Assembly: GCA_963736285.1 (NCBI GenBank)
Contig: CAVTOA010000003.1
Span: 281,652-345,651 of the forward strand
Source: an uncultured Acidimicrobiales bacterium
Lineage (GTDB): Bacteria > Actinomycetota > Actinomycetes > Mycobacteriales > QHCE01
Direction of reading: 5' to 3'
DNA length: 64,000 nt
Shown: positions 4,107 through 29,378 of the stretch, piece after piece
Layout of the letters: every line of letters starts with the position of its first letter
Numbering within the stretch: the first letter of the stretch is position 1
The notes under the pieces: generated by a model
Database searches by the model: none
The model's input: the letters and a program-made list of their open reading frames with translations, nothing else
Told to the model about the DNA's origin: nothing
Translations under genes and position numbers: made by a program

Positions 4107-4330
4107 CTCGTCAACAAGCTCAATCGGCTCGGACACGCAAGCAAGCTTGCGTATCTCTCGCCTCAGTCGTGTGATCCTCGCTTAGCTCGTCAACAAGCTC
4201 AGTCAGCTCGGACACGCAAGCAAGCTTGCGTATCTCTCGCCTCAGTCGTGTGATCCTCGCTTAGCTCGTCAACAAGCTCAATCGGCTCGGACACGCAAGC
4301 AAGCTTGCGTATCTCTCGCCTCAGTCGCTT
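4107..4330 (-). repeat. 79-bp tandem repeat, about 2.8 copies, abutting the tmRNA 3' end
   Basis: Units start at 4107, 4186 and 4265 (period 79). Each contains the hairpin ACGCAAGC-AA-GCTTGCGT. The core is about 95% identical to the repeats next to tRNA-Leu at 43335-43507. Confidence 0.9.
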
Positions 4331-4703
4331 GTGGAGGTGGCGGGAATCGAACCCGCGTCCTTCGTCGCTTCAACAGGACTTCTCCGGGCGCAGCTTGCTG
4401 TGCCTCTACTCGGCCTCACCGATCCCGCAAGCAAGTCGGTGTGACAGGCCCAGTCGCTGTTTGATGTCCCAACGAACCCCGCGACCGAGTTTGTTGGTGC
4501 AGTCCCCTAGCTGATGCCAGGATCCGGGTCGGGAACGTCCCCGGTCTGACAGAGGTGCTTCGCTTTAAGCAGCGAGAGCAACCTCAGCGCGGTTATTAAC
4601 ATTGGCGCTTATTGGTTTGCGACACGTGGTTTACGAGATCATCGTCGCCTTCCTCGGCCCGCTTCCCCTGCCTCGACGTCCGAAGTCGAGACCTGTCACC
4701 CCC
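4331..4703 (-). ncRNA. ssrA: tmRNA (transfer-messenger RNA)
   Basis: Minus strand begins GGGGGTGACAGGTCTCGAC and ends GGGTTCGATTCCCGCCACCTCCA. The acceptor stem is 7 bp with a G3-U pair. Internal tag ORF GCC AAT GTT AAT AAC CGC GCT GAG GTT GCT CTC GCT GCT TAA gives ANVNNRAEVALAA. CCA is not encoded. smpB is nearby. Confidence 0.93.
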
Positions 4704-12952: not shown

Positions 12953-13411
12953 TCAACGCAAAGGTGAACGCGCTTCACTGACCGCGGTCCTTACCAAACC
13001 GTGAGAGAACCCAAACACCGTCCCGAAGGGGATTTGAACCAGGCGGCGGCATCTCACCATTACTGCTCTCCGGTCCACAGTGGCGGCCATGACTAGGGAC
13101 GCGTCATCAGTGAGCATGTACGAGCGATATTCACCAAGCGCATGCTGAGCGGCCTCCGTAGCGACGGGAAGCGCGTCGCCCTCCCGCACGCCAACCGCGT
13201 AGACGGCATCCGAGTCAAGCCCGGATGCAGCGGCGATGGCACCTCCGTCGCAGTCTGCTTGCAGGTCACGCTGGGCAAGGAACGCTGACGATGCGGCAGC
13301 TACACCGGCCGTGAGCAAACTCACGATGAGGAAGCACACCAATATAAGGGGAATACTGCTTCCCGCATCACCGTGGATCCGTGCGTGAATACCCGCCAAG
13401 AGCCGTCGCAT
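12953..13411 (-). CDS. TadE/TadG-like pilus assembly (pseudopilin-like) protein
   Basis: Start set at the Met that overlaps the upstream stop (TGATG). N-terminal hydrophobic segment IPLILVCFLIVSLLTAGVAAA. Last gene of the tad operon. Confidence 0.6.
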   Translation of the reverse strand: MRRLLAGIHARIHGDAGSSIPLILVCFLIVSLLTAGVAAASSAFLAQRDLQADCDGGAIAAASGLDSDAVYAVGVREGDALPVATEAAQHALGEYRSYMLTDDASLVMAATVDRRAVMVRCRRLVQIPFGTVFGFSHGLVRTAVSEARSPLR

Positions 13412-13920
13412 CAGACCGCCGCCGTCCGATACGTATCCACATGCACTACAAACCTGCCGGTCACAGTGTTGCGACTGCTGTCCAAAAAGCTTGGCACCCC
13501 CGGAACCGTGAATACCTGAACCACGCATGCGACAAACTCTGCCCCCGGCTCCAACGTGGCCGCACCAGGCGCTGGCGCAACCGGCCCGTTGTCGCACGAT
13601 TGATTGTGTTGGACAAAGCGAAGGAGGGCCTCGCTCGTATCAAGGTTTTGGTCTTGCAACGCCAACCGCACCGCAAAAACCGCACGGTCCACCCCGGTGT
13701 TCACGTTGTCCGCGCTAGCCACAGCACGTCCGGCCTCACGAGCGGCCTGGGTAACAGCGAAGACATTCCGCTGTAGCTCGAACACCGCCACCAACAGGTA
13801 CAGCAGTGGAACCAACACCATGATGCCAAGAAAGACAAATTCGATCGTCGCGGCACCGGTCTCGTCTCGGAACCGACCCAGCACACCACGAAGATTCCTA
13901 GTGCGAGATGGGAGCGTCAA
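13411..13920 (-). CDS. TadE-like protein
   Basis: TadE N-terminal motif GAATIEFVFLGIMVLVPLLYL. Overlaps both neighbouring genes (ATGA and TGATG). Confidence 0.75.
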   Translation of the reverse strand: MTLPSRTRNLRGVLGRFRDETGAATIEFVFLGIMVLVPLLYLLVAVFELQRNVFAVTQAAREAGRAVASADNVNTGVDRAVFAVRLALQDQNLDTSEALLRFVQHNQSCDNGPVAPAPGAATLEPGAEFVACVVQVFTVPGVPSFLDSSRNTVTGRFVVHVDTYRTAAV

Positions 13921-14354
13921 TTTCTTCCCTCCTTGACCGCATGGCCCCGCACCTCTAGTGGCAACACGTCACCCAATGGAGCAAAAAAGACCGGCAACGC
14001 GCCGTCACATCGAACCTCAACGGTCACAATCCCGCCGGTTCCCGTTGCTTGCCTGCCGGTACAGGAGAGCTGGGACGACGCCGATTCGCCTACGCCACGG
14101 CCGAGCAACACCCGGGCGCGACTCGCCCCAGCTGCTGAGGACACATTGGCTGCGGCGGCATAACGTGCGCCCTCAGCAACGCTCGCTGCCGCAACATTGC
14201 GGATGTACAGATATACCGCCACCTGCAGAATCGCCAACGTCAGGAAGATGAGCAGCACAGAGACCAAGGCAAACTCAACGAGCGTGGAGCCCTCCTCTGA
14301 CATCTTTGCGGTCGACACGTGCGCTCTGCGCAAGAAGGACGCCCGGAACGCCAT
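13917..14354 (-). CDS. TadE-like protein
   Basis: TadE motif GSTLVEFALVSVLLIFLTLAILQ, within the tad operon. Confidence 0.75.
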   Translation of the reverse strand: MAFRASFLRRAHVSTAKMSEEGSTLVEFALVSVLLIFLTLAILQVAVYLYIRNVAAASVAEGARYAAAANVSSAAGASRARVLLGRGVGESASSQLSCTGRQATGTGGIVTVEVRCDGALPVFFAPLGDVLPLEVRGHAVKEGRN

Positions 14355-14360
14355 CTCCGC

Positions 14361-14576
14361 CTAACCACCAGTGCCTGAAACCACTTGGCCAATGGCGGTT
14401 TGAACAGCACCAATGATCGCGCCCTTAAACACCGCAAAGACAGCAACAACCAGGCCCGCGGTCATCACCGTAACCATGACCCAGCCAGGAACATCGCCAC
14501 GATCCAGGCCAAGGCGTCGCAGTGACGATATGCGAGCTCGAACGGCCGTGATGGGCCAGCAACGTTGCATCCGCAT
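14361..14576 (-). CDS. Flp-type small pilin candidate
   Basis: Start chosen at the ATG preceded by GGAGG (ORF track extends to 14711). 71 aa with a charged leader ending RG, then DVPGWVMVTVMTAGLVVAVFAVF as a hydrophobic helix. Sits between tadC and the tadE genes. Confidence 0.6.
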   Translation of the reverse strand: MRMQRCWPITAVRARISSLRRLGLDRGDVPGWVMVTVMTAGLVVAVFAVFKGAIIGAVQTAIGQVVSGTGG

Positions 14577-14666
14577 GCACGCCTCCTTCATTGGGAGTAC
14601 AAATAGGATTGATTGACTGCACAGCGTAAAGGAAATGACCGACTGAGTGAGACCGCTGACTGCGCT

Positions 14667-14681
14667 CTGTGGATAACTCCC
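14667..14681 (-). promoter_or_regulatory. conserved box GGGAGTTATCCACAG upstream of flp
   Basis: Reads GGGAGTTATCCACAG on the gene strand, about 90-105 nt upstream of the flp start. The same 15-mer occurs at 17963-17977. Confidence 0.6.
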
Positions 14682-14721
14682 ATGCGGCTCGCGGTAGGCA
14701 AGCCAAATCACGCCCGACCCT

Positions 14722-15663
14722 TTATTGCGTCAACACGGTGATGCTCGCCAAGCCCGGGTAAAGAGCAAAAAGGACAGTAACGGGCAAGATCAGAAAGACC
14801 ACCGGTACCATCATCAAGATTTCCTTTCTCCCTCCCGCTGCGAGCAATGCACGCTTGCCCGCTTCTCGAACATCGGCCGCTTGTGCACGCAATAGCTCGG
14901 CCAATGGAGTTCCTCGCTCTAACGCGATCGCCACGCCATCAACAAATCTTGCCAATGGCGGAAGACTCGTGCGTTTGGAAAGTCGCTCCAATGCGGCAGG
15001 CAAGGTGACGCCCTCTCGCGTATTTGAAATGACGATCTTCAACTCTTTAGAGAGCTCACCGCCGCACAAGCGACATACGCGCTCCAGCGCCGCAAGGGGT
15101 GCTTCACCTGCGGTAACCGCAAGCGCGAGGAATTCCGCGACTATTGGAAACTCGGCGAGCATGTCCTGCTCACGACGCCGAACCCGCATGCTGAGCCACC
15201 AGTCATAGCCCAATGCACCCGCCAGAAATCCCGCGATCGCAAGCACGATGAGGGCTATGAGACTCACCGAACTGGCCGCAATAGATAGCAGCACAGATGA
15301 CAAGCCACCCATTACAAATCCAACAACGCCCCACACCAGTTGTTCAACTCGAAAATCCTCGACGCTCGCCGATGAGCCCAACGCGCTTAACCTGCGCTGC
15401 ACTGACCTGGAACCGCCAAGCGATCGCTCCATCATCGCCGCACCTCGCTCAAGAGCCGGCCGCAAAACCGCTAGAGGAACACCCCAAAGATGAAGCGTTT
15501 CATCGCTCTGAGCCAAGTTAGACGACGGCTGACGTGCACGAAGATAGGGAGCTAGGCGATCGTCGAGCCTCACCCGCCTCATTGGCGGTGAATACGCAAT
15601 AGCCACCAGGAGACCGGTGGCTCCAAAGAGGCCCAGTAACGCTCCTAACGCGACAGAGTTCAC
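14722..15663 (-). CDS. tadC: type II secretion F-family pilus assembly membrane protein TadC
   Basis: 313 aa polytopic protein with a T2SSF-like domain. 4-nt overlap with tadB. Confidence 0.8.
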   Translation of the reverse strand: MNSVALGALLGLFGATGLLVAIAYSPPMRRVRLDDRLAPYLRARQPSSNLAQSDETLHLWGVPLAVLRPALERGAAMMERSLGGSRSVQRRLSALGSSASVEDFRVEQLVWGVVGFVMGGLSSVLLSIAASSVSLIALIVLAIAGFLAGALGYDWWLSMRVRRREQDMLAEFPIVAEFLALAVTAGEAPLAALERVCRLCGGELSKELKIVISNTREGVTLPAALERLSKRTSLPPLARFVDGVAIALERGTPLAELLRAQAADVREAGKRALLAAGGRKEILMMVPVVFLILPVTVLFALYPGLASITVLTQ

Positions 15664-16526
15664 TGTAATACTCGCTTCTCTTCAGGCAAACGGCCAATGC
15701 GAACCATTGCGCGATAAGCAAGGATGCTCACAACTGCCCCAAGTAACAGCAGAATTCGGCCCGCAAAAGACTCGTACGCGCTCAAAGTGGCCGACTGAGT
15801 CGCAAGGAGAAGCAGCACGAGCCAAGGGGCAGCGACCGCAAGGCGAGCAGCATTAATGGTCCAATTTTGACGAGTCTCAAGCTCGGCGCGGGTACGACTC
15901 TCGTCACGCAGAAATGTCGATAGAGTCCGTAACAGCCGACCTAAATCTGTTCCCCCTACTTCGCGTGCGAGCCGTAACGACTCGCAGATCCGATCACCAA
16001 CGGGATCTGCGAGGTGAGTCTTGAGCCGATCGAGGCAATCCGAAAATTTGCCGGTAATTCGGTAATCGCTGGCAAAGCGGCCGAATGCGGCCTGGAGGGG
16101 CGCTGGACCCCGTACTGCCAAAGCCGCGACACCTTCTGGCAAGGAGAGGCCCGCGCGGACGGCGGACGCCAGACTGTCCACAACCTCCGGCCATACCTCG
16201 CGGAAATCAAGTCTGCGCCTTCTTCTTAGGCTACCGATCATCCCGACAGGAGAGAAAAACCCGAAGAATACAAAGCATGTGGCCACCGAGATGCTCCGGC
16301 TCAATGCCAACGTCGCCATACCTGCTAGCAAGCCCGCTGCCAGCTGTAGGCACATGACCTGCCACGGGCCCACTCCTGTGATTCCTGCTTGCCGCAGTGC
16401 TGCGGTTCGTCGCGCTTTCCACTTCGCAAGAGAGTCGGGTCGCTCCGGTCGCACGGGCGCACGACTGTGCCACACAAGCAGTACACCCAAGCCAAACAGT
16501 AACCCGATGACGGCGCCCATTAGCAC
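15660..16526 (-). CDS. tadB: pilus assembly membrane protein TadB
   Basis: 288 aa polytopic T2SSF-like protein. Overlaps tadA by 7 nt. Confidence 0.8.
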   Translation of the reverse strand: MLMGAVIGLLFGLGVLLVWHSRAPVRPERPDSLAKWKARRTAALRQAGITGVGPWQVMCLQLAAGLLAGMATLALSRSISVATCFVFFGFFSPVGMIGSLRRRRRLDFREVWPEVVDSLASAVRAGLSLPEGVAALAVRGPAPLQAAFGRFASDYRITGKFSDCLDRLKTHLADPVGDRICESLRLAREVGGTDLGRLLRTLSTFLRDESRTRAELETRQNWTINAARLAVAAPWLVLLLLATQSATLSAYESFAGRILLLLGAVVSILAYRAMVRIGRLPEEKRVLQ

Positions 16527-17881
16527 TCACCATCTCCCGCCGAAACAGAAGTCACCCGATATTTCGGCTCACTTCGGACAGCGTTGAGCAGCCGGACGAT
16601 ATCGATGCCCGCCCGGGTGAACCGCTCCATATTGGATGGGAAGCCATCTGCTCGTACGAGCTCATTGCCTCGAGTCGCAAAGATGTCGACTGATTCGATG
16701 ACTGTGCCCTCAACCCTGCCAGAGAGGGCTACGACTTCCCCTACTCGCCGCCTGCCCTGACTATCGCTGGTGAGGTGAACCACCAGATCAACACTCGCCG
16801 CGACAGTCGGGACAACGAAAGAGGCCGCGACATTGCTGCCTGCCAGCAGCGGGAGCGTACACAGTTTGGTAATCGCTTCTCGGGCTGAATTGGCATGGAC
16901 ACTCGCCATCCCCGGTAGGCCAGAGTTCAATGCTATGAGCAAGTCTAAGCACTCTGCTTGGCGAACCTCACCAACAATAATTCGCGAGGGGCGCATTCGG
17001 AGGGCTTCGCTAATGAGTCTGCGAAGAGGAATCTCCCCCGTTCCTTCCAAGTTTGGCTGACGCGTTTGCATCGGCACCCAATCCCGGGCATTTAGCCGTA
17101 GCTCAAAGACCTCCTCACAACTGATAATTCGATCATGCTGCGGAATCGCACCAGCCAAGCAATTTAAAAGAGTTGTCTTGCCGGCTTGAGTGCCCCCAGC
17201 CACAACGACATTGAGCCCAGCAATTACCGCCGCCTCTAGGAAACACGCTGCGTGCGCGGTCATAGTTCGAAGTGCGACCAGCTCCGTGAGGGACCGGGCT
17301 TTCACGATGAACTTTCGGATATTGACTGCCCAATGTTCCCGTGTGATGTCAGGTATGACTACGTGCAGGCGAGAACCATCTGGCAAAGTGGCATCAACAA
17401 ACGGGGTAGAAAGGTCAATGCGCCGCCCGGTGTGTTTAAGCATCCGTTCGACCAGCTCAGTTACCTGTTGGTAAGTGAGGACAACTGTTGTCAATTCGCT
17501 GCGATTATTGCGCGAGATAAAAACGTGACCGGGATCGTTGATCCATATCTCCTCGACTTCTGGATCGTCCAAAAACTGTTGCAAAGGACCGAGACCAGCA
17601 ACGGCGTCAAAAAGCATTTTTGCAACGCACTCGGCGTCAGACAGGGGCGGCGATATGCCCGCAGCAGCTTGTGTCGCATAGTCGACGATGGCCTGATCAA
17701 TTAGTGCGCGCACTGTGGCGGGCTCACGGGCAGGGTCGATGCCGTCGCGTCGGATCAGCTCATGTAGCACTGACTCCACAATGGCATATGAACCTACGGT
17801 GTTCTCTGCCCTTGTGTGACCTACATGGGCCCGTGATGCAGACTGCTTCGAGATACTGGTCAACGTGTTGGTTAATGCCAC
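16520..17881 (-). CDS. tadA: Tad/Flp pilus secretion ATPase TadA/CpaF
   Basis: 453 aa. Walker A GGTQAGKTTLLN, a CEEVFEL region and a RIIVGEVR box typical of VirB11/CpaF ATPases. Confidence 0.9.
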   Translation of the reverse strand: MALTNTLTSISKQSASRAHVGHTRAENTVGSYAIVESVLHELIRRDGIDPAREPATVRALIDQAIVDYATQAAAGISPPLSDAECVAKMLFDAVAGLGPLQQFLDDPEVEEIWINDPGHVFISRNNRSELTTVVLTYQQVTELVERMLKHTGRRIDLSTPFVDATLPDGSRLHVVIPDITREHWAVNIRKFIVKARSLTELVALRTMTAHAACFLEAAVIAGLNVVVAGGTQAGKTTLLNCLAGAIPQHDRIISCEEVFELRLNARDWVPMQTRQPNLEGTGEIPLRRLISEALRMRPSRIIVGEVRQAECLDLLIALNSGLPGMASVHANSAREAITKLCTLPLLAGSNVAASFVVPTVAASVDLVVHLTSDSQGRRRVGEVVALSGRVEGTVIESVDIFATRGNELVRADGFPSNMERFTRAGIDIVRLLNAVRSEPKYRVTSVSAGDGEC

Positions 17882-17962
17882 CGAAGCTACCTTCTTTATC
17901 CCTGATGGGTTACTAGCCGCCGCACGGATCGAGAGAACACTAGCTGACGGTTCAACCCCGCA

Positions 17963-17977
17963 GGGAGTTATCCACAG
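17963..17977 (+). promoter_or_regulatory. conserved box GGGAGTTATCCACAG upstream of the FtsK-like ATPase
   Basis: In the 254-bp tadA/FtsK-like divergent intergenic region, about 160-173 nt upstream of the GTG start at 18136. Identical to the flp box, and both share the preceding CCGCA. Confidence 0.6.
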
Positions 17978-18135
17978 TCACGCATTGTCAACAACGAACG
18001 CGCAGCGTCCATATGCGACTGCGCACATGCGGATTGTTTTGTCCAGCGGGGGAAAAAACTTGTGGAAAGAAACAGAGAAGTCTCGGCACCTGGGGATAAG
18101 GCGTCATCCGGTGAGAATTCACGCAGACTAGTCGT

Positions 18136-21100
18136 GTGGAATTCCCCATCACTTTCGTGGACTCTTGCGGCGATGAGCATGACCTAACTATCTCTGCGGC
18201 TCACACCACGACTGCGCAGGCCCTCGTGGAAAAGCTTCGCGAAATCGACCCGGACGCCCGCATCGACCGGCTTTACCATCCACAAGGACAATTGCGGGCC
18301 ACCCAGCGCATAGGAGAGCCACCCCTCATAGCCGGAATTCGACTCCAGGCCATGCCCGTCGTCTCGTCACGTGAACCGTCTACTACAGACAAGAAGCGTC
18401 AACGCCTCACCCTCACGGCTTCCCAGGACTTAACCTGTTCTCAATATCCTCCTCATGGCTCGCTACTGCTCCATGTCATAGCAGGACCAGACAGCGGCCA
18501 GGTACACCCGCTCACAAGCCGTAGGGCTACCACAGACAAAGCCCGGAAGTCGACTTCTACATCAGACAATTCGCGCAGCATCACGGTTGGCCGCAGCGAT
18601 TGCGCCGACGTTTCAATTGAAGACCCAGATGTATCGAGTCTTCATGCAAAGATAACAATTCGACCCGGATCTCTGCAGCTATCTGACTTGGGCTCAACCA
18701 ATGGCACGACGTTACAGGGAAGAGCCATTGATGGGCCTGTTGAGCTGTGGCCAGAACAGGTTATTCGGTGCGGCGGAAGCTTATTTGTAGTCTCGACATC
18801 GACATTCCCACCATTGCAACTCAGACCAAACCGCTCTGGCTTTTTGATGCTTGGAAGGCCACCTAGGGTCACTCCTCGCCATGTGCCTCCGGAGTTCAGT
18901 TTTCCTGCTCCCCCAATATCCCCACCTCGCACTCCCATACCGTGGCTATTGGTGATTACACCTTTGCTGATCGGAACTGCCTTCTATTGGATTAGTGGAG
19001 CATTACATGGCGATGGCGCGTACTTTCTTTTGCTCACTTTCCTCTCTCCTCTCATGGTTTTTCTCGGTGGACTAACCGACAAGATTGCTCGGTTTAAGGC
19101 TCACCGAAAAGCAATGTTGCGGCACAATCACGTTGTCGCCGATATAACGCAGGGGATAGCTGCTGCGGTCAGCGACGAGCAACAACGGCTGAGAACCGCA
19201 TTTCCCAGTCCCGCCTTACTCTTCCTCGTGATCTGTCACAGAAATTCGCGCCTGTGGGAACGGCGGCCGCGGGATCACGACAACCTGGTGCTTAGGGTTG
19301 GAACAGCAAACCTCCCCTCCGGACTGCGGATTCATGGAGAAACTGGCAACCGCACTCGCCAGCCGGTGAGCTTGCTTGCCTCACACCGGAAACCTCGGGA
19401 GGCACCCTCTCGAACCCTGGCAAGCGTGCCGGCCACGGTGCCACTCCGTGACGTGGGTGTGTTCGGAGTAGCAGGGCCGAGCCGCCTCGGAGTGGTCCGC
19501 TTCCTTGTCGCGCAACTGGCCGGACTCCACCACCCCAAAAATCTTCGCCTAGTGCTACTGGCAAATAACGACGCACCACAGCGCTGGAAATGGTTTCGGT
19601 GGTTGCCACACGCTGCCACCTCTGGCTCTCATCCGAATGGAGCAACCTTCCACATAGGACTATCGCCAGCTCAAAGGAACAGCAGAGTCGGCGAGCTTGG
19701 ATCGCTCATCACGGAGCGCATTTCCCACGACCCAGAAACGCTCCGGCAGCCAAACCATCACGGGCTCGTAGTGCGGCCAAATTATGTCGTGGTAATCGAC
19801 GACGCTGACCTGCTAAGAACCGAGGAAGGCGTTGCTCGCTTACTCATCGACGGCCCGCGTGTTGGAGTCTATGTGATCTGCCTCACCGAAGATTCGCTGC
19901 GCCTTCCTGAAGAATGCGATGCAACTCTGATCACTACTAATGCACCGGGCGAAGGTGCGACCCTACAGATCCGAAATCAGGCGACTCTATCGTCGATCAC
20001 CACCGAGTCTGTATCCCCAGATTGGACGGACACCATTGCGCGCGCATTGGCTCCACTCCACGACGCGGCCCCTGAAGAGGACCACCTTGACCTACCGCCC
20101 CAAGTCTTCCTAGAGGCGTTCTTGTCAGAGATTCACGCCAGGCACCGCGTTTACGTTGAAGCGCGCACCCCTTCCCGCAGACACTGGTCCAAAGCTCATC
20201 AGTCGCATGTCGAGCCATTAGTGCCGGAGAACGTGCACCAGCATTGGCTCGATAAGCCACGCTCATCGCTTGTTCCGGTCGGCATTGGCTCGGCCGGAAC
20301 GGTCGCTATCGACCTCATAAAAAACGGTCCACACGCTCTGATCGCAGGAACGACAGGGTCAGGAAAGTCGGAACTTTTGCAAACCATCATCCTTGGATTG
20401 GCCCTGGGTAATCACCCTCACGAGCTTTCTTTCATACTCATTGACTACAAAGGTGGCGCGGCTTTTTTCGAATGCGACGACCTGCCACACACGGTTGGGC
20501 TTGTCACCGATCTCGACAGTCAATTGACGAGACGTGCTTTGTCCTCGCTTCGGGCGGAGCTACGAAACCGGGAAAAAATCCTCGCGGCTCACCAGATGAA
20601 AAACCACGAAAGCTACTGCATCGCACGCGACCAGGCCTCGCCGCATACACAACCGCCCCGCGCTCACACTTCTACCTGGCCTCACATGGCCCGTCTCGTC
20701 ATCGTTGTCGACGAGTTTGCCGCACTGGCTCAAGAACTCCCTGAGTTCATCACAGGGCTTGTCGACATAGCGCGACGCGGACGTTCTCTAGGAGTGCACC
20801 TCATCCTCGCAACTCAACGTCCTGCGGGCGTGGTTTCGACGGAGATCCGTGCGAACACCGCGCTCCGAATGTGCCTGAGAGTGAACGATCCAGCTGAAAG
20901 TAGCGACGTCATCGGGGCAGTCGATGCCGCTCAACTCAGTCACACGCGGCCTGGTCGTTGTTGGATCCGGACCGGCAATACGTTGCAGCAGGTACAAGTT
21001 GCCTACGGCGGTGTCACTCCCCCCGTCGCCACAAGTGCCTCAGATGTCGACATAAGACATATGCCGTGGGAGGCGCTAGGAGACTCCTTGCAGGAGTTCA

Positions 21101-22824
21101 GCTCGTCGGGCCTCGCAAACGAAAGGGAGGCGGACGCCACTCGAATTGTGTCCACTCTTCGGCTTGCCGCAGCGCCTATCGCACCTCTGCCAAGCCCGTG
21201 GCTACCACCGCTTCCTCGCTTGATCACTCTTACTGAGCTGCTGACTTATTCCGGGAGGCCGCATTCACGCCCCGACTCCATCGATCGCGAGTCTCGGTGG
21301 TGCCTGGCTCCTGTTGGCTTACAGGACATACCTGACGAGCAACGGCGTGCTCTCTACGGACTGTCTCTACGCGGCTCTGTGAGATCCCCCGCCAGCCAAG
21401 ACGGCACCCTATCCAGTGCAGTGCCACTACCTGCGGCAACGAGCGCAGGTGGACCGTCAGATGCGGTGCACCACATCATGTTTGTTGGCGGACCGCATAG
21501 CGGGAAGACATCTGCGTTACGAATGCTGGCAGTCAGCGCCGCACAGTTTGCGACGCCCGAAGAGATGCAGATCTACGTGCTGGACTGTGCAAACGGCGAC
21601 TTGGCTGACCTCGAATATTTGCCCCATTGTGCTGGCATCGCCCACCATCTAGATCTGGAACACGGCGAGCGTTTGCTATACAGCCTGGCAAAAAACACAT
21701 CAACGATCGCGCCGGCAGACCGCCGTGGCGACAAGCCGGCAAAGATACTTCTGATCGACTCTTGGGAGGGTTTCTCTGAAAGCTATGGGTCTGTCGGCCA
21801 TGGTGAGCTCATGGACCTGCTTGGCCTCCTCTTGAGGACCGGTCCGTCCGCCGGAGTGCGGGTGGCAATAACAGGCGGCCGCGCTCTGGCAACAGCTCGG
21901 TTTGCAAGCCACATCACTGAGCGACTCATCCTGCCCTTCGCTGATGTGGACAGCTACTGTTCCCTCGGAGTCCCGAAAGACCAGATCCCCACCAACCCAC
22001 CCCCTGGCAGAGCTTTACGCATGGGTAGACAGATTACCGAAATTCAGCTCGCCGCCACCCAGGCAGTGCCACAGGCCGATCAACGCTCCCAAAAGGAGCT
22101 CGGACCCCGACGAATGATGCCCCTGCCTCAGCACGTAAGACTAGAGGAGCTTGAGCCCCAAGTAGAGCGAGCTCCTCACGCGGCGACACCTGCCGTAATT
22201 TTGGGCATCGGTGGTGAATACGCCCAACCGTTCCAGATAAACTTCGACGACATTACCTCCGGATTGTTGGTGGTCGGTCCACCAGCAAGTGGGCGTACAA
22301 ATACACTTCGGCTCTTTGCACACGCTGCCAGTCAAGCAGCTCGCCAATTTTTTGTCATTTCTTCCCAGAAAACAGAATGGCAGCTGGGGCAAGCGGATAT
22401 ACAACACTCCTATGTGGCCTCTCACCGAGAACCAACGGATGGCCATTGCTTCAGTACAAGCGGCATAGCCGAGCTGGAAAACGCCTTGAAAACGCAAGCG
22501 ACCAAACCCGCGATCATTATCGTCGACGACGCTCAACAGCTCCTGGACACTGAAATGGGAGAACGGCTGTCCACCCTCGCACGAACCGGTGAGCACACAG
22601 TGATTGCGAGTGTCGCCACAGAGGACTTACATAACGCTTTTCGGGGACTCATTCACGAACTACGACGCGCCCACACCGCACTTCTGTTATGGCCCAAGTA
22701 CCACGATGGCTCTCTCTTCGACCTGCAACTAAGTCGCGCAATTGGCCTGCGCTACCCAGGGCGTGGGCTCTACATCGCGCGCGGAAACGCCACACCCATA
22801 CAGCTCGCCCGCATAGGAAGCTGA
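18136..22824 (+). CDS. FHA-domain FtsK/SpoIIIE-family (EssC/EccC-like) membrane ATPase with four P-loop-type domains
   Basis: 1562 aa. FHA-like segment (ITVGRSDCADVSIEDPDVSSLHAKI...GSTNGTTLQG) and two TM helices (IPWLLVITPLLIGTAFYWISG, YFLLLTFLSPLMVFLGGL). One degenerate P-loop domain (GVAGPSRLG ... VVVIDDAD) is followed by Walker A GTTGSGKS with IVVDEF, GGPHSGKT, and GPPASGRT with IIIVDDAQ. Confidence 0.85.
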   Translation: MEFPITFVDSCGDEHDLTISAAHTTTAQALVEKLREIDPDARIDRLYHPQGQLRATQRIGEPPLIAGIRLQAMPVVSSREPSTTDKKRQRLTLTASQDLTCSQYPPHGSLLLHVIAGPDSGQVHPLTSRRATTDKARKSTSTSDNSRSITVGRSDCADVSIEDPDVSSLHAKITIRPGSLQLSDLGSTNGTTLQGRAIDGPVELWPEQVIRCGGSLFVVSTSTFPPLQLRPNRSGFLMLGRPPRVTPRHVPPEFSFPAPPISPPRTPIPWLLVITPLLIGTAFYWISGALHGDGAYFLLLTFLSPLMVFLGGLTDKIARFKAHRKAMLRHNHVVADITQGIAAAVSDEQQRLRTAFPSPALLFLVICHRNSRLWERRPRDHDNLVLRVGTANLPSGLRIHGETGNRTRQPVSLLASHRKPREAPSRTLASVPATVPLRDVGVFGVAGPSRLGVVRFLVAQLAGLHHPKNLRLVLLANNDAPQRWKWFRWLPHAATSGSHPNGATFHIGLSPAQRNSRVGELGSLITERISHDPETLRQPNHHGLVVRPNYVVVIDDADLLRTEEGVARLLIDGPRVGVYVICLTEDSLRLPEECDATLITTNAPGEGATLQIRNQATLSSITTESVSPDWTDTIARALAPLHDAAPEEDHLDLPPQVFLEAFLSEIHARHRVYVEARTPSRRHWSKAHQSHVEPLVPENVHQHWLDKPRSSLVPVGIGSAGTVAIDLIKNGPHALIAGTTGSGKSELLQTIILGLALGNHPHELSFILIDYKGGAAFFECDDLPHTVGLVTDLDSQLTRRALSSLRAELRNREKILAAHQMKNHESYCIARDQASPHTQPPRAHTSTWPHMARLVIVVDEFAALAQELPEFITGLVDIARRGRSLGVHLILATQRPAGVVSTEIRANTALRMCLRVNDPAESSDVIGAVDAAQLSHTRPGRCWIRTGNTLQQVQVAYGGVTPPVATSASDVDIRHMPWEALGDSLQEFSSSGLANEREADATRIVSTLRLAAAPIAPLPSPWLPPLPRLITLTELLTYSGRPHSRPDSIDRESRWCLAPVGLQDIPDEQRRALYGLSLRGSVRSPASQDGTLSSAVPLPAATSAGGPSDAVHHIMFVGGPHSGKTSALRMLAVSAAQFATPEEMQIYVLDCANGDLADLEYLPHCAGIAHHLDLEHGERLLYSLAKNTSTIAPADRRGDKPAKILLIDSWEGFSESYGSVGHGELMDLLGLLLRTGPSAGVRVAITGGRALATARFASHITERLILPFADVDSYCSLGVPKDQIPTNPPPGRALRMGRQITEIQLAATQAVPQADQRSQKELGPRRMMPLPQHVRLEELEPQVERAPHAATPAVILGIGGEYAQPFQINFDDITSGLLVVGPPASGRTNTLRLFAHAASQAARQFFVISSQKTEWQLGQADIQHSYVASHREPTDGHCFSTSGIAELENALKTQATKPAIIIVDDAQQLLDTEMGERLSTLARTGEHTVIASVATEDLHNAFRGLIHELRRAHTALLLWPKYHDGSLFDLQLSRAIGLRYPGRGLYIARGNATPIQLARIGS

Positions 22825-25867: not shown

Positions 25868-26905
25868 TTAGACCCTCACGCTAGCGAGCTGCTGGCGAAG
25901 TAGCCGCAATGACGTTTCCTGAGCCACCTCGATAACGAGAGACCTACGCGACACGTCCATCAAGTTCGCCCCCATCGCCGTCAGATCATCCAAACCCGGG
26001 CACAGTACGTATACCTTGGCGCCGCTCCTTATGATGTGCTCCATCTCTCGACGCAAACGCCGCGTCACCGAACGCCTCCATCGACGCTCAAGACGTGCCA
26101 ACATTCCTGTCGGTGAATCCAATGCAAAGGCCGCCAGCGGTGCTACTACATAGATCTCATCCAGATTCTCTTGTGCGAGCAAATCTGCTGACGTCGACGA
26201 ATACATTCCGCCATCGACGTAACGTCGCCCATCAATGTCGACCGGTGTAAACCAGCCAGGAATGGCACACGAGGCTCCGACCGCCGCCGGCAACGAGGGA
26301 AACGGCGAGCCAGCTCGCCCGAATGCCACTCGCTCGCCAGAGTCGTAATTCATCGCCACTATCCACAATGCGGGATGCGGCGCCCATGTGCGTTGTGGAC
26401 CCAGGGCCAGTTCAACGATGTCCTCGATCGGCGCCAGAGAACCACGCCCAAGGGGCAACAGTGCCGACAGGGCCGCACGCGGCGTAATGCTTCGAGGATT
26501 GCGCAAAGCCGTGAGCAACAGCCTCATAGAACCCGGGCGCAAATGAGGCCGGCTAGGGCGTGGACGTCCTCCGTTGAGCTCATCGTTGTAGTCGATGAGG
26601 AAGTCGCCCGGCGCGGGCGCACCCATCTGTTGACGCAACATCATTGGCACTGATATGCCGCAGCCCAGCACGGATCCCACAAGTGCGCCAGCTGACGTGC
26701 CGACGATGATGTCGACTTGCCGGCAGTCTAAGCCCGTGGATTTTTCTAACGCGGCCAGCGCCCCTACCATCCAGGCATACCCGAGAACACCTCCACCGCC
26801 GAGGACAAGACCGCGCCGTACTTGATCTCCGTCTACCACGGTCTCATCTTCCCCCTCGTCACGACGGTTGCGCGGAAAGGCGCCGCCTTTCCTGGCTGCT
26901 GCCAC
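25868..26905 (-). CDS. patatin-like phospholipase
   Basis: Oxyanion GGGGVLG, nucleophile elbow GTSAG and catalytic DGG motif. Confidence 0.85.
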   Translation of the reverse strand: MAAARKGGAFPRNRRDEGEDETVVDGDQVRRGLVLGGGGVLGYAWMVGALAALEKSTGLDCRQVDIIVGTSAGALVGSVLGCGISVPMMLRQQMGAPAPGDFLIDYNDELNGGRPRPSRPHLRPGSMRLLLTALRNPRSITPRAALSALLPLGRGSLAPIEDIVELALGPQRTWAPHPALWIVAMNYDSGERVAFGRAGSPFPSLPAAVGASCAIPGWFTPVDIDGRRYVDGGMYSSTSADLLAQENLDEIYVVAPLAAFALDSPTGMLARLERRWRRSVTRRLRREMEHIIRSGAKVYVLCPGLDDLTAMGANLMDVSRRSLVIEVAQETSLRLLRQQLASVRV

Positions 26906-28175
26906 CGGACATCAGTGCCGGGGATCCGACCAATGACTCGGCAATCTGGGCGAGACGCACCCGAAGACGAGATTCTGGCGCTACCTCTGCAAGGGTTCGC
27001 CCTACCGCCACCGCTCGATCCGCCGCCAGCTGATCGTGAGGCAATTGCTGCGCATTAATGACTCCCGCATACCGCTTTAGCGCAGCCATTACCTCCTGCT
27101 CCGGATCGCCGGGGACCACACCACGGCGGGTCTTATTAACCACCACGTGGCGTGTCGTATCGGGCACTATCCCCGCTAACTCGTCCAGACCCCGGATCAG
27201 CCTGCCCATGCCCACCGGATCAGCCGCTCCGACCGCCACCACAATGTCAGAAGAAGCCAAAGCCGCCAATGTGGCTCCATTACGTCTAGGTGCCATAGTG
27301 TCGTAGGACAGTTCTTCGTCTGTCTCTAAGCAAAATCCGCAGTCGATGACAGTGAACGCAGCAAGCTCCCGCGCTCGAGCCAGCACCGCCATCAACGAAT
27401 CCGGACGCAGCTCCACCCACCTCTCAGGTCGCGTAATTCCCGTCAAAACCCTCAACTGAGGATGGATAGCCCTGGCCAAGCCGGCGAGTGCTGGTATGTC
27501 TAGCGCACCATTATTGGCCAAGTGAGCTGCGGCAGCGATGCCCGGCGCCTCGTCCAGCATGCTAAGCATTTGGGCAATCGTCCCCCCATAAGAATCCGCA
27601 TCTATCAGTAATGTCGGAACGCCCAATCGAGCGGCTTCATCCGCCAATCCGATTGCCAGAGTGGTACGGCCGGGTGCACCGGTCGGACCCCACACCGCTA
27701 CTACTCGTCCCGGTGCCGCAGGTGAAATTGGACCACGGTTGTCCGCAGGTAGAGACGCTGAAAAGAGAGCCGCTCGAGGGTCGGCTGGCATGTGTCGCGC
27801 AGACGAAGGCCGCATTTGTGCCGCACCCCGAATAAGAGCTTCTGCCACAAGCGCTGCTGGAGATCGCAAAGGCAAGACCTGCGTCAGACCCAGTTGACGT
27901 AGCCGCCGCTCCCCCGCTTCGTCGTGTGCATCGACCAGCCCCACGATGGCGACGCCGGCCGCATATAGCCGAGTGAGTATCTCGTGATCGAGATGTCGAA
28001 GGTCCGCGGAGAGCAAGGCCGCACGCGCAACGCCGACCGATGCCGTGGCTAGAAGATCCGCAACGTCAGCACATCTGCGCACTACGGCAATCCCATGCTC
28101 GGCTTGACCCAGTGCGGTGACCAAGGCAGCCTCGAGCTCGGCATTAGTGACGGCGGTCAGTACTGGCAAATCCAT
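26859..28175 (-). CDS. CpaE/TadZ- or Ssd-like ParA/MinD-family ATPase
   Basis: N-terminal receiver-like domain followed by the deviant Walker A VVAVWGPTGAPGRTTLAIGLA. Resembles M. tuberculosis Rv3660c in its tad context. Confidence 0.75.
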   Translation of the reverse strand: MDLPVLTAVTNAELEAALVTALGQAEHGIAVVRRCADVADLLATASVGVARAALLSADLRHLDHEILTRLYAAGVAIVGLVDAHDEAGERRLRQLGLTQVLPLRSPAALVAEALIRGAAQMRPSSARHMPADPRAALFSASLPADNRGPISPAAPGRVVAVWGPTGAPGRTTLAIGLADEAARLGVPTLLIDADSYGGTIAQMLSMLDEAPGIAAAAHLANNGALDIPALAGLARAIHPQLRVLTGITRPERWVELRPDSLMAVLARARELAAFTVIDCGFCLETDEELSYDTMAPRRNGATLAALASSDIVVAVGAADPVGMGRLIRGLDELAGIVPDTTRHVVVNKTRRGVVPGDPEQEVMAALKRYAGVINAQQLPHDQLAADRAVAVGRTLAEVAPESRLRVRLAQIAESLVGSPALMSGGSSQERRRLSAQPS

Positions 28176-28214
28176 AACTCTGGCCTTCTTCGTTTAATTT
28201 GCGGTCTTGATCGC

Positions 28215-29057
28215 TCATTGATGAGAAGCCATGTTGTGGGAGCTCCGCTGGTTAGCCGGCACATTGCTTGAAGACGTGGGATGCGTCGGTGGCGGCACGG
28301 ATGCGGAAGAGCTAGCCCTTGGATCCGCTTTAGCGCCGCCCAACTTCGTAGGCTCGCACAATGACGTTCGGGTGGTGGAGCCCGCGGATAGCGTGACATC
28401 GATCTCCGCCGCCCGGACCGCGTTGACAACGCGCGAAGTGGTGTCCGACGCCACCCAGACTGTCAGCGACCATTCGCCTGTGTCGGAAAGACCCGAATGA
28501 GGCGAGGTCACGTCTTGCACGGTGGCGCTCTGCAGTACTCGCTCTGTCTGGCCTGCCCTGTTGTCTCGAGGGCTGGCAAAAACATCGACACGCCGGCCCC
28601 GGGTGACAGAAGGCGGAAGGTGGTGCGATGCCACCGGAATGCTCACCAAGGCACCACAGGCCGCGACACGCAATGCACCACGAGGGATGAGCTCATGCGC
28701 TGACACATCTCTCACCAGTGTCTTTCCGGTCACAACTTGTGTGTCGGCGAAATATTGCGCTGAGCCCCTGGGTAGCCGCACGCTTACTCGTTCAATATCT
28801 GCGGCAGTCAGCGTTGCGCCCGCAGCAGTGTCGTGCCGTACTGCCCACACAAGCGTCGAGTGGTCGGCGGACGCAACAACACGTGCACCGAGAGCGACCG
28901 AGACGAGCAACAGAAGGACACCACACACAAGACGAATGTTGAGCCATGTGGGCATCCGAGTACGGGTGGCGCTAGGAGAGGCGAAGTGCCCCTCACCCGC
29001 CGCACGTAACGGACCCTCCGTTGCTTTGATCGCAGAGGGCGACGACACCTGACTCAT
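28215..29057 (-). CDS. SAF-domain protein (CpaB/RcpC-like pilus assembly protein)
   Basis: Start set at the Met preceded by GGAGAGG (ORF track extends to 29321). One TM helix, then a SAF-like segment (AAGATLTAADIERVSVRLP...VTGKTLVRDVSAHELI). Directly upstream of the cpaE-like gene. Confidence 0.65.
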   Translation of the reverse strand: MSQVSSPSAIKATEGPLRAAGEGHFASPSATRTRMPTWLNIRLVCGVLLLLVSVALGARVVASADHSTLVWAVRHDTAAGATLTAADIERVSVRLPRGSAQYFADTQVVTGKTLVRDVSAHELIPRGALRVAACGALVSIPVASHHLPPSVTRGRRVDVFASPRDNRAGQTERVLQSATVQDVTSPHSGLSDTGEWSLTVWVASDTTSRVVNAVRAAEIDVTLSAGSTTRTSLCEPTKLGGAKADPRASSSASVPPPTHPTSSSNVPANQRSSHNMASHQ

Positions 29058-29378
29058 CGAAATACCTCTCCACACATACTGATTTGCGAGAAAACCTCGG
29101 CCATCCTGCACCATCACGACCAAAGCATCGAAAGTTTTCCACAAGAAGGATGGAAATCGCTTCCCCTGTGGACAGAGGAACCAGAGTCGGCGTAAGTGGC
29201 AAAATAAGGCAGTGCGCGGGGCAGGTTCCCCAACGCACTGACTAACCGCCGTTGCCGGTGGAGCGTTACGGCGCTCCTTCACCCGGACCAACCAGAACCG
29301 CACGGCTACACCAGTGATCATCAGGGAACAAACTGCTGTCTCTGATCAAGCACGGAAGAACAGAAAGCAGAGCCACCC

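What the first reader, a model, noticed from the sequence alone, without database searches (positions are those of the whole stretch)
18136..22824. Unusual architecture: possible ubiquitin-like N-terminus, FHA, two TM helices and four P-loop domains, as an orphan
The sequence shows an FHA-like block at roughly residues 150-215 and two TM helices at about 270-310. These are followed by one degenerate and three canonical Walker A/B domains (GTTGSGKS, GGPHSGKT, GPPASGRT). The first ~75 residues (ITFVDSCGDEHDLTISAAHTTTAQALVEKL) resemble the beta-grasp YukD/EccD N-terminal pattern. As I recall, actinobacterial EccC lacks FHA domains and firmicute EssC has them, so this looks like an EssC-style protein in an actinobacterial context with no partners in the window. 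The whole 1562-codon frame is intact, although several nearby core genes are frameshifted.
Basis: partly seen in the sequence, partly recalled or inferred. Interest (0 to 1): 0.7.

Follow-up and report, generated by a model that had tools for sequence, protein, structure and literature searches.

The report
Tad-linked EssC-like secretion ATPase
This intact 1562-codon gene encodes a type VII secretion-class (EssC/EccC-like) membrane ATPase with its own ubiquitin-like and phosphothreonine-binding domains; it belongs to a widespread actinobacterial family that I found neither named nor described, and it sits back-to-back with a Tad pilus operon in an arrangement conserved across distant genomes.

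Summary
The architecture is real. It runs: ubiquitin-like domain (residues 1-76), one FHA domain with an intact phosphothreonine-binding motif, a two-helix membrane hairpin, a degenerate P-loop (DUF) domain, then three ATPase domains. Only the first ATPase domain is fully canonical.

It is not a one-off. About 1450-residue homologues with the same layout occur across Actinomycetota. In 29 of 47 related loci they lie beside WXG100 genes, often with RHS toxins carrying a type VII signal, or with Ser/Thr kinases. This marks the family as type VII secretion (T7SS) ATPases. It fails the curated cut-offs for both EssC and EccC. Its N-terminus (ubiquitin-like domain plus FHA) differs from every described T7SS type a-j, including actinobacterial T7SSd.

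The 64 kb window holds no WXG100 gene or other T7SS partner. However, the gene is divergently paired with tadA of a complete Tad pilus operon. The same prfB-tad-ATPase block occurs in Intrasporangium calvum and in several metagenome-assembled genomes (MAGs).

In Micrococcus luteus, a point mutation in a two-TM "FtsK/SpoIIIE" gene at that position lowers natural transformation at least 1000-fold. I could not fetch its sequence, so its membership of this family is untested.

The frameshifted neighbours (secA, eno) look like assembly indels.

Verdict: a new variant of a known kind, of moderate interest.

The parts
18136..22824 (+). Whole gene: Ubl-FHA-2TM-DUF-D1-D2-D3 T7SS-class ATPase, 1562 aa, GTG start
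   Evidence: ORF. Pfam and NCBIfam matches. Start supported by homologue N-termini.
18136..18363 (+). Ubiquitin-like (YukD/EsaB-like beta-grasp) domain, residues 1-76
   Evidence: AF2 pLDDT 89.6. Foldseek matches to ubiquitin, NEDD8 and ISG15. YukD Pfam hits in 12 of 45 relatives.
18364..18459 (+). Low-confidence Ser/Thr-rich linker, residues 77-108; partly specific to this protein
   Evidence: pLDDT 45-60 in the 1-700 model. Alignment gaps in homologues.
18460..18801 (+). FHA domain, residues 109-222, with GR (152-153), SxxH (167-170) and NG (189-190); a 20-residue S/T-rich loop insertion at about 128-147
   Evidence: Pfam PF00498 7e-13. Motif table. Foldseek matches to OdhI, GarA and CT664 FHA.
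18937..19080 (+). Transmembrane hairpin, residues 268-290 and 294-315
   Evidence: Kyte-Doolittle scan finds these as the only hydrophobic segments. Helices appear in the AF2 model.
19081..20205 (+). Stalk helix plus DUF (degenerate P-loop) domain, residues 316-690
   Evidence: TIGR03924 EccCa aligns over residues 258-956. PDB sequence hits to EccC3 and the EccC5 DUF. Foldseek hits to 9qks YukB, 7np7, 6umm and 8rin.
20206..21015 (+). ATPase domain D1, residues 691-960: Walker A GTTGSGKS (738-745), Walker B DE (859-860); the catalytic domain and the most conserved part
   Evidence: PF01580 1.8e-49. Motifs are universal in the family. 53-62% identity to relatives against 25-45% elsewhere in the protein.
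21316..22095 (+). ATPase domain D2, residues 1061-1320: Walker A GGPHSGKT; Walker B Asp 1208 without an adjacent Glu
   Evidence: Most relatives have GxxRSGR[ST] here.
22096..22821 (+). ATPase domain D3, residues 1321-1562: Walker A GPPASGRT (Arg for Lys), DD at 1464-1465
   Evidence: PF13401 match at 1377-1488. The Arg is 94% conserved in the family.
17882..18135 (.). Shared 254-bp divergent intergenic region between tadA and the ATPase gene
   Evidence: No sigma-70 consensus site was found.
12953..17881 (-). Tad (Flp) pilus operon. tadA 16520-17881, tadB 15660-16526, tadC 14722-15663, flp-containing ORF 14361-14711, tadE 13917-14354, ORF 13411-13920, tadG-like 12953-13597.
   Evidence: Pfam T2SSE, T2SSF x2, TadE and Tad. 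Orthologues in L001, L002, L018 and L086.
26859..29321 (-). Detached half of the Tad system: TadZ-like ParA ATPase (26859-28175) and CpaB/SAF protein (28215-29321)
   Evidence: Weak Pfam CbiA and SAF hits. Orthologues of L001/L005 ParA and SAF genes at 51-62% identity.

Best explanation
**What it is.** The gene encodes a membrane-anchored translocase ATPase of the type VII secretion class (EssC/EccC). It belongs to a distinct actinobacterial subfamily whose N-terminus is a ubiquitin-like domain followed by a single FHA domain competent to bind phosphothreonine.

**How it most likely works (inferred by analogy with EssC/EccC).**
- It oligomerises in the membrane through its two-helix hairpin and stalk.
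- Only D1 hydrolyses ATP.
- D2 and D3 bind nucleotide or substrate and act as regulators.
- The fused ubiquitin-like domain does in cis what free YukD does for B. subtilis YukB, and what the EccD ubiquitin-like domain does for EccC. That is, it clamps the FHA/DUF region to stabilise the assembly.
- The FHA domain couples activity to Ser/Thr-kinase signalling.

**Its role in this genome.** This is the conserved Tad-linked orthologue. It is transcribed divergently from tadA and lies between the two halves of a Tad pilus gene set, with no WXG100 gene beside it. The most likely role is therefore export of a protein substrate encoded elsewhere, in concert with or co-regulated with the Tad pilus. 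In the one organism where the neighbouring system was studied, that pilus serves DNA uptake.

**Shown versus inferred.** Shown here: domain identities, motif states, family membership, neighbourhood statistics and synteny. Inferred: oligomer, substrate, the cis role of the ubiquitin-like domain, and functional coupling to Tad.
For: **T7SS-class ATPase.**
- NCBIfam: EssC 480.8 bits, EccCa 318.8 bits, EccCb 266.1 bits.
- PDB by sequence: YukB 236 bits and T. curvata EccC 222 bits.
- AF2 model of residues 1-700: pLDDT 82, pTM 0.82. Its best Foldseek hit is the B. subtilis T7SSb core unit 9qks at E 1.4e-24, followed by ESX-5 and ESX-3 EccC.

**Family links to T7SS substrates.**
- WXG100 genes (Pfam 6e-14 to 4e-17) lie within 10 kb in 29 of 47 loci.
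- RHS proteins with T7SS_signal/WXG100 N-termini occur in 15 loci.
- Ser/Thr kinases occur in 6 loci.

**Ubiquitin-like and FHA domains:**

**Mechanistic precedent.** YukD binds the YukB FHA, DUF and D1 hairpin and is needed for assembly. The EccD ubiquitin-like domain binds the EccC DUF (PMC12637312).

**The gene is under constraint.** It deviates at 11 of 189 columns that are at least 85% conserved; the family median is 8.5. D1 motifs are intact.

**Tad linkage.**
- Tad genes lie within 6 genes in 13 of 47 loci, spread over at least 4 clades.
- The tadA-first divergent arrangement, with TadA 62-70% identical, occurs in L001, L002, L018, L029, L058, L063 and Intrasporangium calvum CP002343.
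- I. calvum shares the whole M23-ftsX-ftsE-prfB-tad-ATPase block with the window.
- T7SSg and T7SSh of Bacillota are also always next to Tad genes (PMC11217815).
- In M. luteus, a G327E change in the two-TM FtsK/SpoIIIE gene divergent from tadA1 cuts transformation at least 1000-fold (PMC8467076).
Against: - No WXG100, LXG, kinase or other T7SS component was detected in the 64 kb. The substrate is therefore unknown, and the rest of the 1.5 Mb genome could not be read.
- I could not retrieve the M. luteus Mlut_07490 sequence, so its membership of this family rests on the published description and synteny only.
- Adjacency to Tad genes does not prove functional coupling. 34 of 47 family loci have no Tad genes nearby.
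- The gene evolves far faster than its neighbours: 37% identity to the L001 orthologue against 54-78% for flanking genes. This could mean relaxed constraint outside D1.
- Contacts in the AF2 model could not be inspected, so cis-docking of the ubiquitin-like domain is inferred only from a high pTM.
Confidence: 0.6

Rival explanations
1. It is a plain T7SS motor whose WXG100 and toxin substrates are simply encoded elsewhere in the genome. The Tad adjacency would then be a neutral relic of gene order with no functional meaning.
For: Most family loci (29 of 47) carry WXG100 genes, and many carry RHS toxins. The syntenic orthologue in L005 has a WXG100 gene divergently upstream instead of Tad. T7SS substrates are often unlinked from the motor gene.
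Against: The tadA-ATPase divergent pair is kept across lineages in which the ATPase itself has diverged to 30-37% identity. Tad adjacency in 13 of 47 loci far exceeds chance for a single roughly 10 kb locus per genome. It also recurs with a different Tad type in Streptosporangiales and in Bacillota T7SSg/h.
Confidence: 0.25
2. It is a DNA translocase. In this reading the FtsK-like motor imports (or exports) DNA through the membrane during Tad-pilus-dependent natural transformation, as the M. luteus authors assumed for Mlut_07490.
For: [quoted passage not shown] D1 also gives weak hits to FtsK, TraB and CedB models.
Against: - The FtsK model NF007615 scores 64 bits against a cut-off of 1566. 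TraB scores 37 against 800 and CedB 26 against 700.
- The DUF plus three tandem ATPase layout and the two-TM hairpin are the T7SS signature, not that of DNA pumps. No gamma/winged-helix DNA-binding domain was detected.
- Relatives sit beside WXG100 and T7SS-signal toxins.
- ComEC is the usual DNA channel in M. luteus.
Confidence: 0.08
3. It is a decaying relic: a T7SS ATPase left behind after loss of its substrates in a small (about 1.5 Mb) genome and drifting towards pseudogenisation.
For: No partner genes lie in the window. It is the fastest-diverging gene of the syntenic block. It carries lineage-specific low-complexity insertions. Broken genes lie nearby.
Against: The 4.7 kb frame is intact, and conserved-column deviations are typical of the family (11 against a median of 8.5). 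D1 and FHA motifs are intact. The same partner-less arrangement persists in L001, L002 and I. calvum. The nearby broken genes are essential (secA, eno) with perfectly conserved pieces, so they are likely sequencing indels.
Confidence: 0.05
4. It is part of an anti-phage defence or conjugation system built on an FtsK/HerA-type ATPase.
For: PADLOC mad8 (1e-40) and SspH hits, and NCBIfam HerA and VirB4 hits, all on D1.
Against: All these hits cover only the generic FtsK-like D1 core (residues about 710-955). No defence or conjugation genes lie nearby. Full-length similarity is to EssC/EccC.
Confidence: 0.02

Closest known systems
EssC / YukB, the T7SSb ATPase of Bacillota (PDB 9qks)
   Same: A cytoplasmic N-terminal module containing FHA, a two-TM stalk, a DUF and three FtsK-like ATPase domains. 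It is the best sequence and structure match.
   Different: EssC has two FHA domains that lack the phosphothreonine motif, and it uses a separate YukD/EsaB protein. Here the first position is a fused ubiquitin-like domain and the single FHA keeps GR/SxxH/NG. The TIGR03928 score of 480.8 is below its cut-off of 778.4. No EssA/EssB/EsaA partners are present.
TsdC / TseC, ATPases of T7SSd (Olsenella, Bifidobacterium) and T7SSe (PMC11217815)
   Same: FHA with a conserved phosphothreonine-binding motif, association with Ser/Thr kinases in some loci, and (for T7SSd) an actinobacterial host. The family FHA HMM hits TseC at 42 bits and TsdC at 32 bits.
   Different: The TsdC N-terminus aligns with EssC FHA1 and gives no hit to the family's ubiquitin-like HMM. 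T7SSd is reported to have no ubiquitin-like component at all. TsdH and TsdI were not looked for. TsdD was not found in the window, though kinases occur in 6 related loci.
EccC, the T7SSa (ESX) ATPase of Actinomycetota
   Same: Two TM helices, a DUF and three ATPase domains. The DUF and D1 align.
   Different: EccC has no cytoplasmic N-terminal domains, and its ubiquitin-like partner is the N-terminus of EccD. The TM-DUF HMM scores EccC at only 87 bits against 138-154 for EssC-like types. TIGR03924 and TIGR03925 score below cut-off. No eccB/D/E or mycP genes are present.
YukD / EsaB and the EccD N-terminal ubiquitin-like domain
   Same: The beta-grasp fold. Pfam YukD hits 12 of 45 family N-termini. 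The proposed role is as a non-conjugated structural clamp on the ATPase (PMC12637312).
   Different: Here the domain is covalently fused to the ATPase N-terminus. [quoted passage not shown]
Micrococcus luteus Mlut_07490 ('FtsK/SpoIIIE DNA translocase' next to tad-1)
   Same: Divergent from tadA of a tadA-first Tad cluster, only two TM helices, and Walker A GTTGSGKS. The same position is occupied in I. calvum, another member of Micrococcales.
   Different: It was interpreted as a DNA translocase or signalling protein, not as a T7SS-class ATPase.

Membership tests
T7SS ATPases in general (EssC/EccC class) | Two-TM hairpin, then a DUF (degenerate P-loop), then three FtsK/SpoIIIE-like ATPase domains | tested here: met
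T7SS ATPases in general (EssC/EccC class) | Genetic association with a WXG100 (EsxA-like) substrate gene | tested here: inconclusive
   Not met in the 64 kb window. Met at family level in 29 of 47 loci. The rest of the genome was not available.
T7SSb EssC (TIGR03928) | Score at or above the curated equivalog cut-off of 778.4 bits | tested here: not met
   480.8 bits.
T7SSb EssC | Two N-terminal FHA domains lacking the phosphothreonine motif, with separate YukD/EsaB, EssA, EssB and EsaA partners | tested here: not met
   One FHA with an intact GR/SxxH/NG motif, preceded by a ubiquitin-like domain. No partner genes lie in the window.
T7SSa EccC (TIGR03924 / TIGR03925) | Scores at or above cut-offs of 509.15 and 346.55 bits; no N-terminal cytoplasmic domain; eccB/eccD/eccE/mycP neighbours | tested here: not met
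   318.8 and 266.1 bits. 265 residues precede TM1. No ecc or mycP genes are present.
T7SSd TsdC (Garrett et al. 2024) | FHA domain with a conserved phosphothreonine-binding motif | tested here: met
   Table S1 of PMC11217815.
T7SSd TsdC (Garrett et al. 2024) | N-terminal FHA1-like region and no ubiquitin-like component in the system; TsdD kinase, TsdH and TsdI in the locus | tested here: not met
   The ubiquitin-like HMM finds nothing in the O. uli TsdC N-terminus, and the query has a ubiquitin-like domain there. No kinase lies in the window. TsdH and TsdI were not specifically searched for.
FtsK/SpoIIIE DNA translocases | A single motor domain with a C-terminal gamma (winged-helix) domain; four or more TM helices; NF007615 cut-off of 1566 bits | tested here: not met
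   64 bits, over D1 only. Two TM helices. Three tandem ATPase domains.
YukD/EsaB ubiquitin-like family (PF08817) | Beta-grasp fold and a profile match | tested here: inconclusive
   The fold is met. The Pfam profile matches 12 of 45 relatives but not the query itself.
FHA domain (PF00498) | A profile match above the gathering score, and the GR, SxxH and NG residues | tested here: met
   49.2 bits against 20.7. Motifs.
Tad-linked actinobacterial ATPase typified by M. luteus Mlut_07490 | Divergent from tadA of a tadA-first Tad cluster; two TM helices; GTTGSGKS | tested here: met
   Window. Published description.
Tad-linked actinobacterial ATPase typified by M. luteus Mlut_07490 | Sequence homology to Mlut_07490 (UniProt C5C9X9) over the full length | not testable with these tools
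   The sequence could not be retrieved. Micrococcus was absent from the 120 rows listed in each.

The most novel reading that the evidence does not exclude
The window carries a member of an undescribed T7SS subtype in which the YukD-like ubiquitin domain is fused in cis to an EssC-like ATPase. Its Tad-linked orthologues, including M. luteus Mlut_07490, would be an ancestral core-genome component of the actinobacterial Tad pilus and competence machine. A type VII-class translocase would then be required for Flp-pilus-dependent DNA uptake, rather than (or in addition to) toxin export.
Probability: 0.3. Interest if true: 0.75.

Novelty: new variant of a known kind. Interest (0 to 1): 0.55.

Why it matters
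**Classification of type VII systems.** T7SS types are currently classified by their ATPase and partners (types a-j). All but one type use a separate ubiquitin-like protein that has just been shown to scaffold assembly. A large actinobacterial family carrying that scaffold in cis would be a natural single-chain model for the Ubl-FHA-DUF interaction. It would also extend the T7SS catalogue in Actinomycetota beyond ESX and T7SSd. Annotation pipelines currently label the family only 'FtsK/SpoIIIE domain-containing protein'.

**Link between secretion and pili.** The conserved back-to-back pairing with Tad pilus operons echoes the unexplained Tad adjacency of T7SSg/h in Bacillota. Together with the M. 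luteus transformation phenotype, it makes one question directly testable: do type VII-class motors and Tad pili work together, and if so in contact-dependent delivery, pilus biogenesis or DNA uptake?

Tried and rejected
- **Organism identity.** The self-match P0001 and the window's pruA product are not in the contig index. Cluster look-up gave no names or accessions. Megablast against plasmids found nothing.
- **Family-specific genome scan.** The full-length alignment was used instead; its last roughly 20 loci are generic FtsK hits and were discarded.
- **First gene caller.** A GC3-based caller failed on this 57% GC window and was replaced.
- **WXG100 in the window.** tblastn with the L005 WXG100 and two custom HMMs found nothing. 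Positive controls gave 28 and 35 hits in related loci.
- **M. luteus Mlut_07490.** A second homologue search seeded with the Humibacillus Tad-linked orthologue listed only Intrasporangiaceae and Streptomyces proteins. The plasmid collection gave only an Arthrobacter split EccC-like gene without Tad genes.
- **Defence-system reading.** PADLOC hits cover only the generic D1 core.
- **Promoter scan.** No consensus site was found in the divergent intergenic region, which is uninformative for Actinomycetota.
- **Ubl profile search.** The search of 1.84 billion representatives was topped by poly-ubiquitin-like repeat proteins. It therefore confirms the fold family but does not give a clean count of the fused architecture.
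- **Literature.** Searches for a description of a Ubl-fused T7SS ATPase found none in the held library.
Full report
**1. The observation**

The ORF at 18136..22824 (+) is intact: 1562 codons with a GTG start.
- Pfam finds FHA at residues 149-213 (7e-13), a strong FtsK_SpoIIIE match at 712-897, and AAA_22 at 1377-1488.
- A hydropathy scan finds only two hydrophobic segments, 268-290 and 294-315.
- The N-terminal 76 residues are conserved across the family. Many homologues start M-x-L-x-L-T-V aligned to query residue 1. The GTG at 18136 is therefore the better start. The database version (P0001, 1532 aa, starting at V31) truncates the first domain.
- AF2 on residues 1-82 with a 45-sequence alignment gave pLDDT 89.6 and a beta-beta-alpha-beta fold. 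Its best PDB matches are ISG15, NEDD8, ubiquitin and a bacterial Ubl.
- Pfam YukD matches 12 of 45 family N-termini, though not the query itself.

- Only D1 is fully canonical (GTTGSGKS, Walker B DE).
- D2 has GGPHSGKT, but no Glu follows its Walker B Asp.
- D3 has Arg in place of the Walker Lys, a feature 94% conserved in the family.

**2. What class of protein it is**

NCBIfam scores are EssC 480.8, EccCa 318.8 and EccCb 266.1 bits. All are below their curated cut-offs. FtsK, TraB and CedB models score trivially.

By sequence, the best solved relatives are B. subtilis YukB (236 bits) and T. curvata EccC (222 bits).

An AF2 model of residues 1-700 gave pLDDT 82 and pTM 0.82. Its best structural match is the B. 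subtilis T7SSb core unit 9qks (E 1.4e-24), then ESX-5 and ESX-3 EccC and the EccC5 DUF. The FHA part matches the phosphothreonine readers OdhI, GarA and CT664.

I also built family HMMs and scored fragments transcribed from the published alignment of T7SS types.

| Family HMM region | EssC | TseC | TsdC | EccC |
|---|---|---|---|---|
| TM-DUF | 154 bits | 142 bits | 138 bits | 87 bits |
| FHA | no hit | 42 bits | 32 bits | no hit |
| Ubiquitin-like | no hit | no hit | no hit | no hit |

The protein is thus an EssC-like T7SS-class ATPase. Its N-terminus (Ubl plus one phosphothreonine-competent FHA) matches none of the described types a-j (PMC11217815).

**3. It is a family, not a singleton**

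- The window protein found 197 homologues. The best non-self hit is 37% identical. Most are about 1450 aa and come from Frankiales, Streptomyces, Kribbella, Actinoplanes, Janibacter and many MAGs.
- A genome scan returned loci from Streptomyces, Nonomuraea, Microbispora, Thermomonospora, Frankia, Geodermatophilus, Microbacterium, Cellulosimicrobium, Demequina, Acidimicrobiia and others.
- I called genes in 47 full-length loci and clustered the neighbours.
  - Two clusters of roughly 100-aa proteins are WXG100 (Pfam 6e-14 to 4e-17). They occur within 10 kb in 29 of 47 loci.
  - Fifteen loci have large RHS proteins with T7SS_signal/WXG100 N-termini.
  - Six loci have Ser/Thr kinases.
- This neighbourhood supports the family being a type VII secretion motor that often serves toxin export.
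- NCBI's annotation pipeline (PGAP) labels these proteins only 'FtsK/SpoIIIE domain-containing protein', while true eccCa, eccCb and essC genes get named.
- I found no paper in the held library describing a ubiquitin-like domain fused to a T7SS ATPase. [quoted passage not shown]

**4. The window's context**

The 64 kb contains no WXG100 gene. This was tested by tblastn and by two custom HMMs with positive controls. Nor does it contain EccB/D/E, MycP, EssB or a kinase.

The gene is nevertheless not context-free.
- It is divergent, across 254 bp, from tadA of a complete Tad operon (tadA-tadB-tadC-flp-tadE-...-tadG-like, 12953-17881). That operon is preceded by PadR, prfB, ftsE, ftsX, an M23 peptidase, smpB and tmRNA.
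- TadZ-like and CpaB-like genes lie 4 kb downstream of the ATPase gene, beyond pruA, HAD, DUF6912 and patatin genes.
- The same tadA-ATPase divergent pair occurs in L001, L002, L018, L029, L058 and L063, with TadA 62-70% identical.
- In the complete genome of Intrasporangium calvum DSM 43043, the whole M23-ftsX-ftsE-prfB-tad-ATPase block is shared with the window.
- A different Tad type (cpaB-tadZ-tadA, TadA 29-37% identical) is divergent from family members in Streptosporangiales, one Streptomyces and an Acidimicrobiales MAG. In some of these a WXG100 gene lies on the other side.
- Overall, 13 of 47 loci have Tad genes within six genes, spread over at least four clades of a neighbour-joining tree.
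- Garrett et al. noted that T7SSg and T7SSh of Bacillota are also always next to Tad genes.

**5. An experimental lead**

In Micrococcus luteus, Mlut_07490 is described as an FtsK/SpoIIIE-family ATPase with only two TM helices and Walker A GTTGSGKS. It lies directly next to, and opposite in orientation to, tadA1 of the tad-1 cluster.

A re-introduced G327E point mutation lowered natural transformation at least 1000-fold without repressing the comEA/EC promoter (PMC8467076). The tad-1 cluster is itself required for Flp pili and transformation (PMC4322843).

The description and position fit this family. I could not obtain the sequence, so membership is untested.

**6. State of the gene**

- It deviates from the family consensus at 11 of 189 strongly conserved columns; the family median is 8.5.
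- It keeps the D1 and FHA motifs.
- Between the window and its closest syntenic relative L001, flanking genes are 54-78% identical (RF2 78, TadA 72, PruA 72). The ATPase is only 37% identical: D1 is 62%, and the other domains are 32-43%. It is thus the fastest-evolving gene of the block, yet it is retained.
- It carries lineage-specific Ser/Thr-rich insertions in the Ubl-FHA linker and inside the FHA.

**7. The 'frameshifted neighbours'**

secA is split into at least four ORFs (31830-34660), and eno has three frame changes (48250-49560). In both, the pieces encode perfectly conserved sequence.

These are essential genes, and related MAG records are from long-read projects. Assembly indels are therefore the likelier cause. 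Intactness of the ATPase frame is accordingly weak evidence: mfd and ppc are intact too.

**8. Interpretation**

The best-supported reading has three parts.
- It is a T7SS-class translocase of a distinct Ubl-FHA subfamily.
- The fused ubiquitin-like domain plausibly plays in cis the scaffold role shown for YukD on YukB, and for the EccD ubiquitin-like domain on EccC (PMC12637312).
- The FHA plausibly receives kinase input.

In this lineage it is the conserved Tad-linked orthologue with no adjacent substrate gene. A function in concert with the Tad pilus is the leading hypothesis. A plain T7SS with remote substrates is the main rival. A DNA-pump role, a decaying relic and a defence system are less likely, for the reasons given under the rival explanations.

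**9. Verdict**

The protein is a new architectural variant of a known kind of machine, and a member of a large family that I found neither named nor described in the resources searched. Its interest lies in the cis-fused ubiquitin-like scaffold and in the conserved, possibly functional, link to Tad pili and competence.

Noticed in passing
window 31830-34660 (-): secA is broken into at least four ORFs, each matching consecutive SecA Pfam domains. secA is essential, so this is probably due to assembly indels rather than decay.
   Followed up: partly
window 48250-49560 (-): Enolase runs through three reading frames, with two indels within about 10 codons at one site. All pieces are perfectly conserved up to the normal stop, which is typical of long-read consensus errors.
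   Followed up: partly
window 18136-18225: The deposited protein for this gene (P0001, 1532 aa) starts at V31. That start removes the first two strands of the ubiquitin-like domain. Homologues support the GTG at 18136.
   Followed up: yes
window 18380-18569: A 13-nt motif CTAC(T/C)ACAGACAA occurs three times. It encodes TTDK- and STSDN-like stretches in the two Ser/Thr-rich insertions specific to this protein (linker, and FHA loop 128-147). These could be small duplications or possible phospho-acceptor sites.
   Followed up: partly
window 12953-17881 and 26859-29321: The Tad gene set is split. tadA to tadG-like lie on one side of the ATPase gene. tadZ-like and cpaB-like lie 4 kb beyond it on the other side, separated by pruA, HAD, DUF6912 and patatin genes. 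TadZ orthologues also lie downstream of the ATPase in L005, L013, L034 and L047.
   Followed up: partly
window 18136-22824 versus L001 10001-14347: The ATPase is by far the fastest-evolving gene of the syntenic block: 37% identity against 54-78% for 13 flanking genes. Only D1 (62%) is comparably conserved.
   Followed up: yes
L004, L007, L009-L012, L014-L017, L020, L021, L024, L026, L027, L032, L033, L037, L038, L053: In the Streptomyces, Kribbella and Streptosporangiales clade the FHA phosphothreonine motif (GR/SxxH/NG) is degenerate. Many of these members sit beside RHS toxins. The motif is intact in the Tad-linked and pruA-syntenic clade and in a kinase-associated clade.
   Followed up: partly
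family-wide (alignments A3, full.aln): The Walker A lysine is replaced by arginine in D3 in nearly all members, and in D2 in most members. The window protein is unusual in keeping Lys in D2.
   Followed up: partly
P0121, P0122, P0149 and others: The ubiquitin-like profile's strongest hits in 1.84 billion representatives are proteins with 4-18 tandem ubiquitin-family repeats, some with Ig/CARDB/PKD-like domains. Their origin and function are unknown.
   Followed up: partly
L046 14181-18229: An Iamiaceae MAG has four consecutive genes with near-identical WXG100 N-termini. Three are fused to different C-terminal domains (one is CHAP), forming a polymorphic-toxin array right after the ATPase.
   Followed up: partly
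P0296, P0303, P0312: Three distinct ~1500-aa family proteins (46-48% identical to the Humibacillus MAG query) are all named Humibacillus xanthopallidus. They sit on separate contigs (1.8, 2.5 and 4.7 Mb) that may be different assemblies, so I did not establish whether one genome holds several paralogues.
   Followed up: no
L005 9528-13603: A syntenic orthologue (pruA downstream) is only 1200 aa and lacks D3. It has a WXG100 gene divergently upstream where the window has the Tad operon.
   Followed up: partly
window 4329-4703 (-), 43512-43597 (-): A tmRNA lies next to smpB, and there is one tRNA. Both are ordinary features.
   Followed up: no
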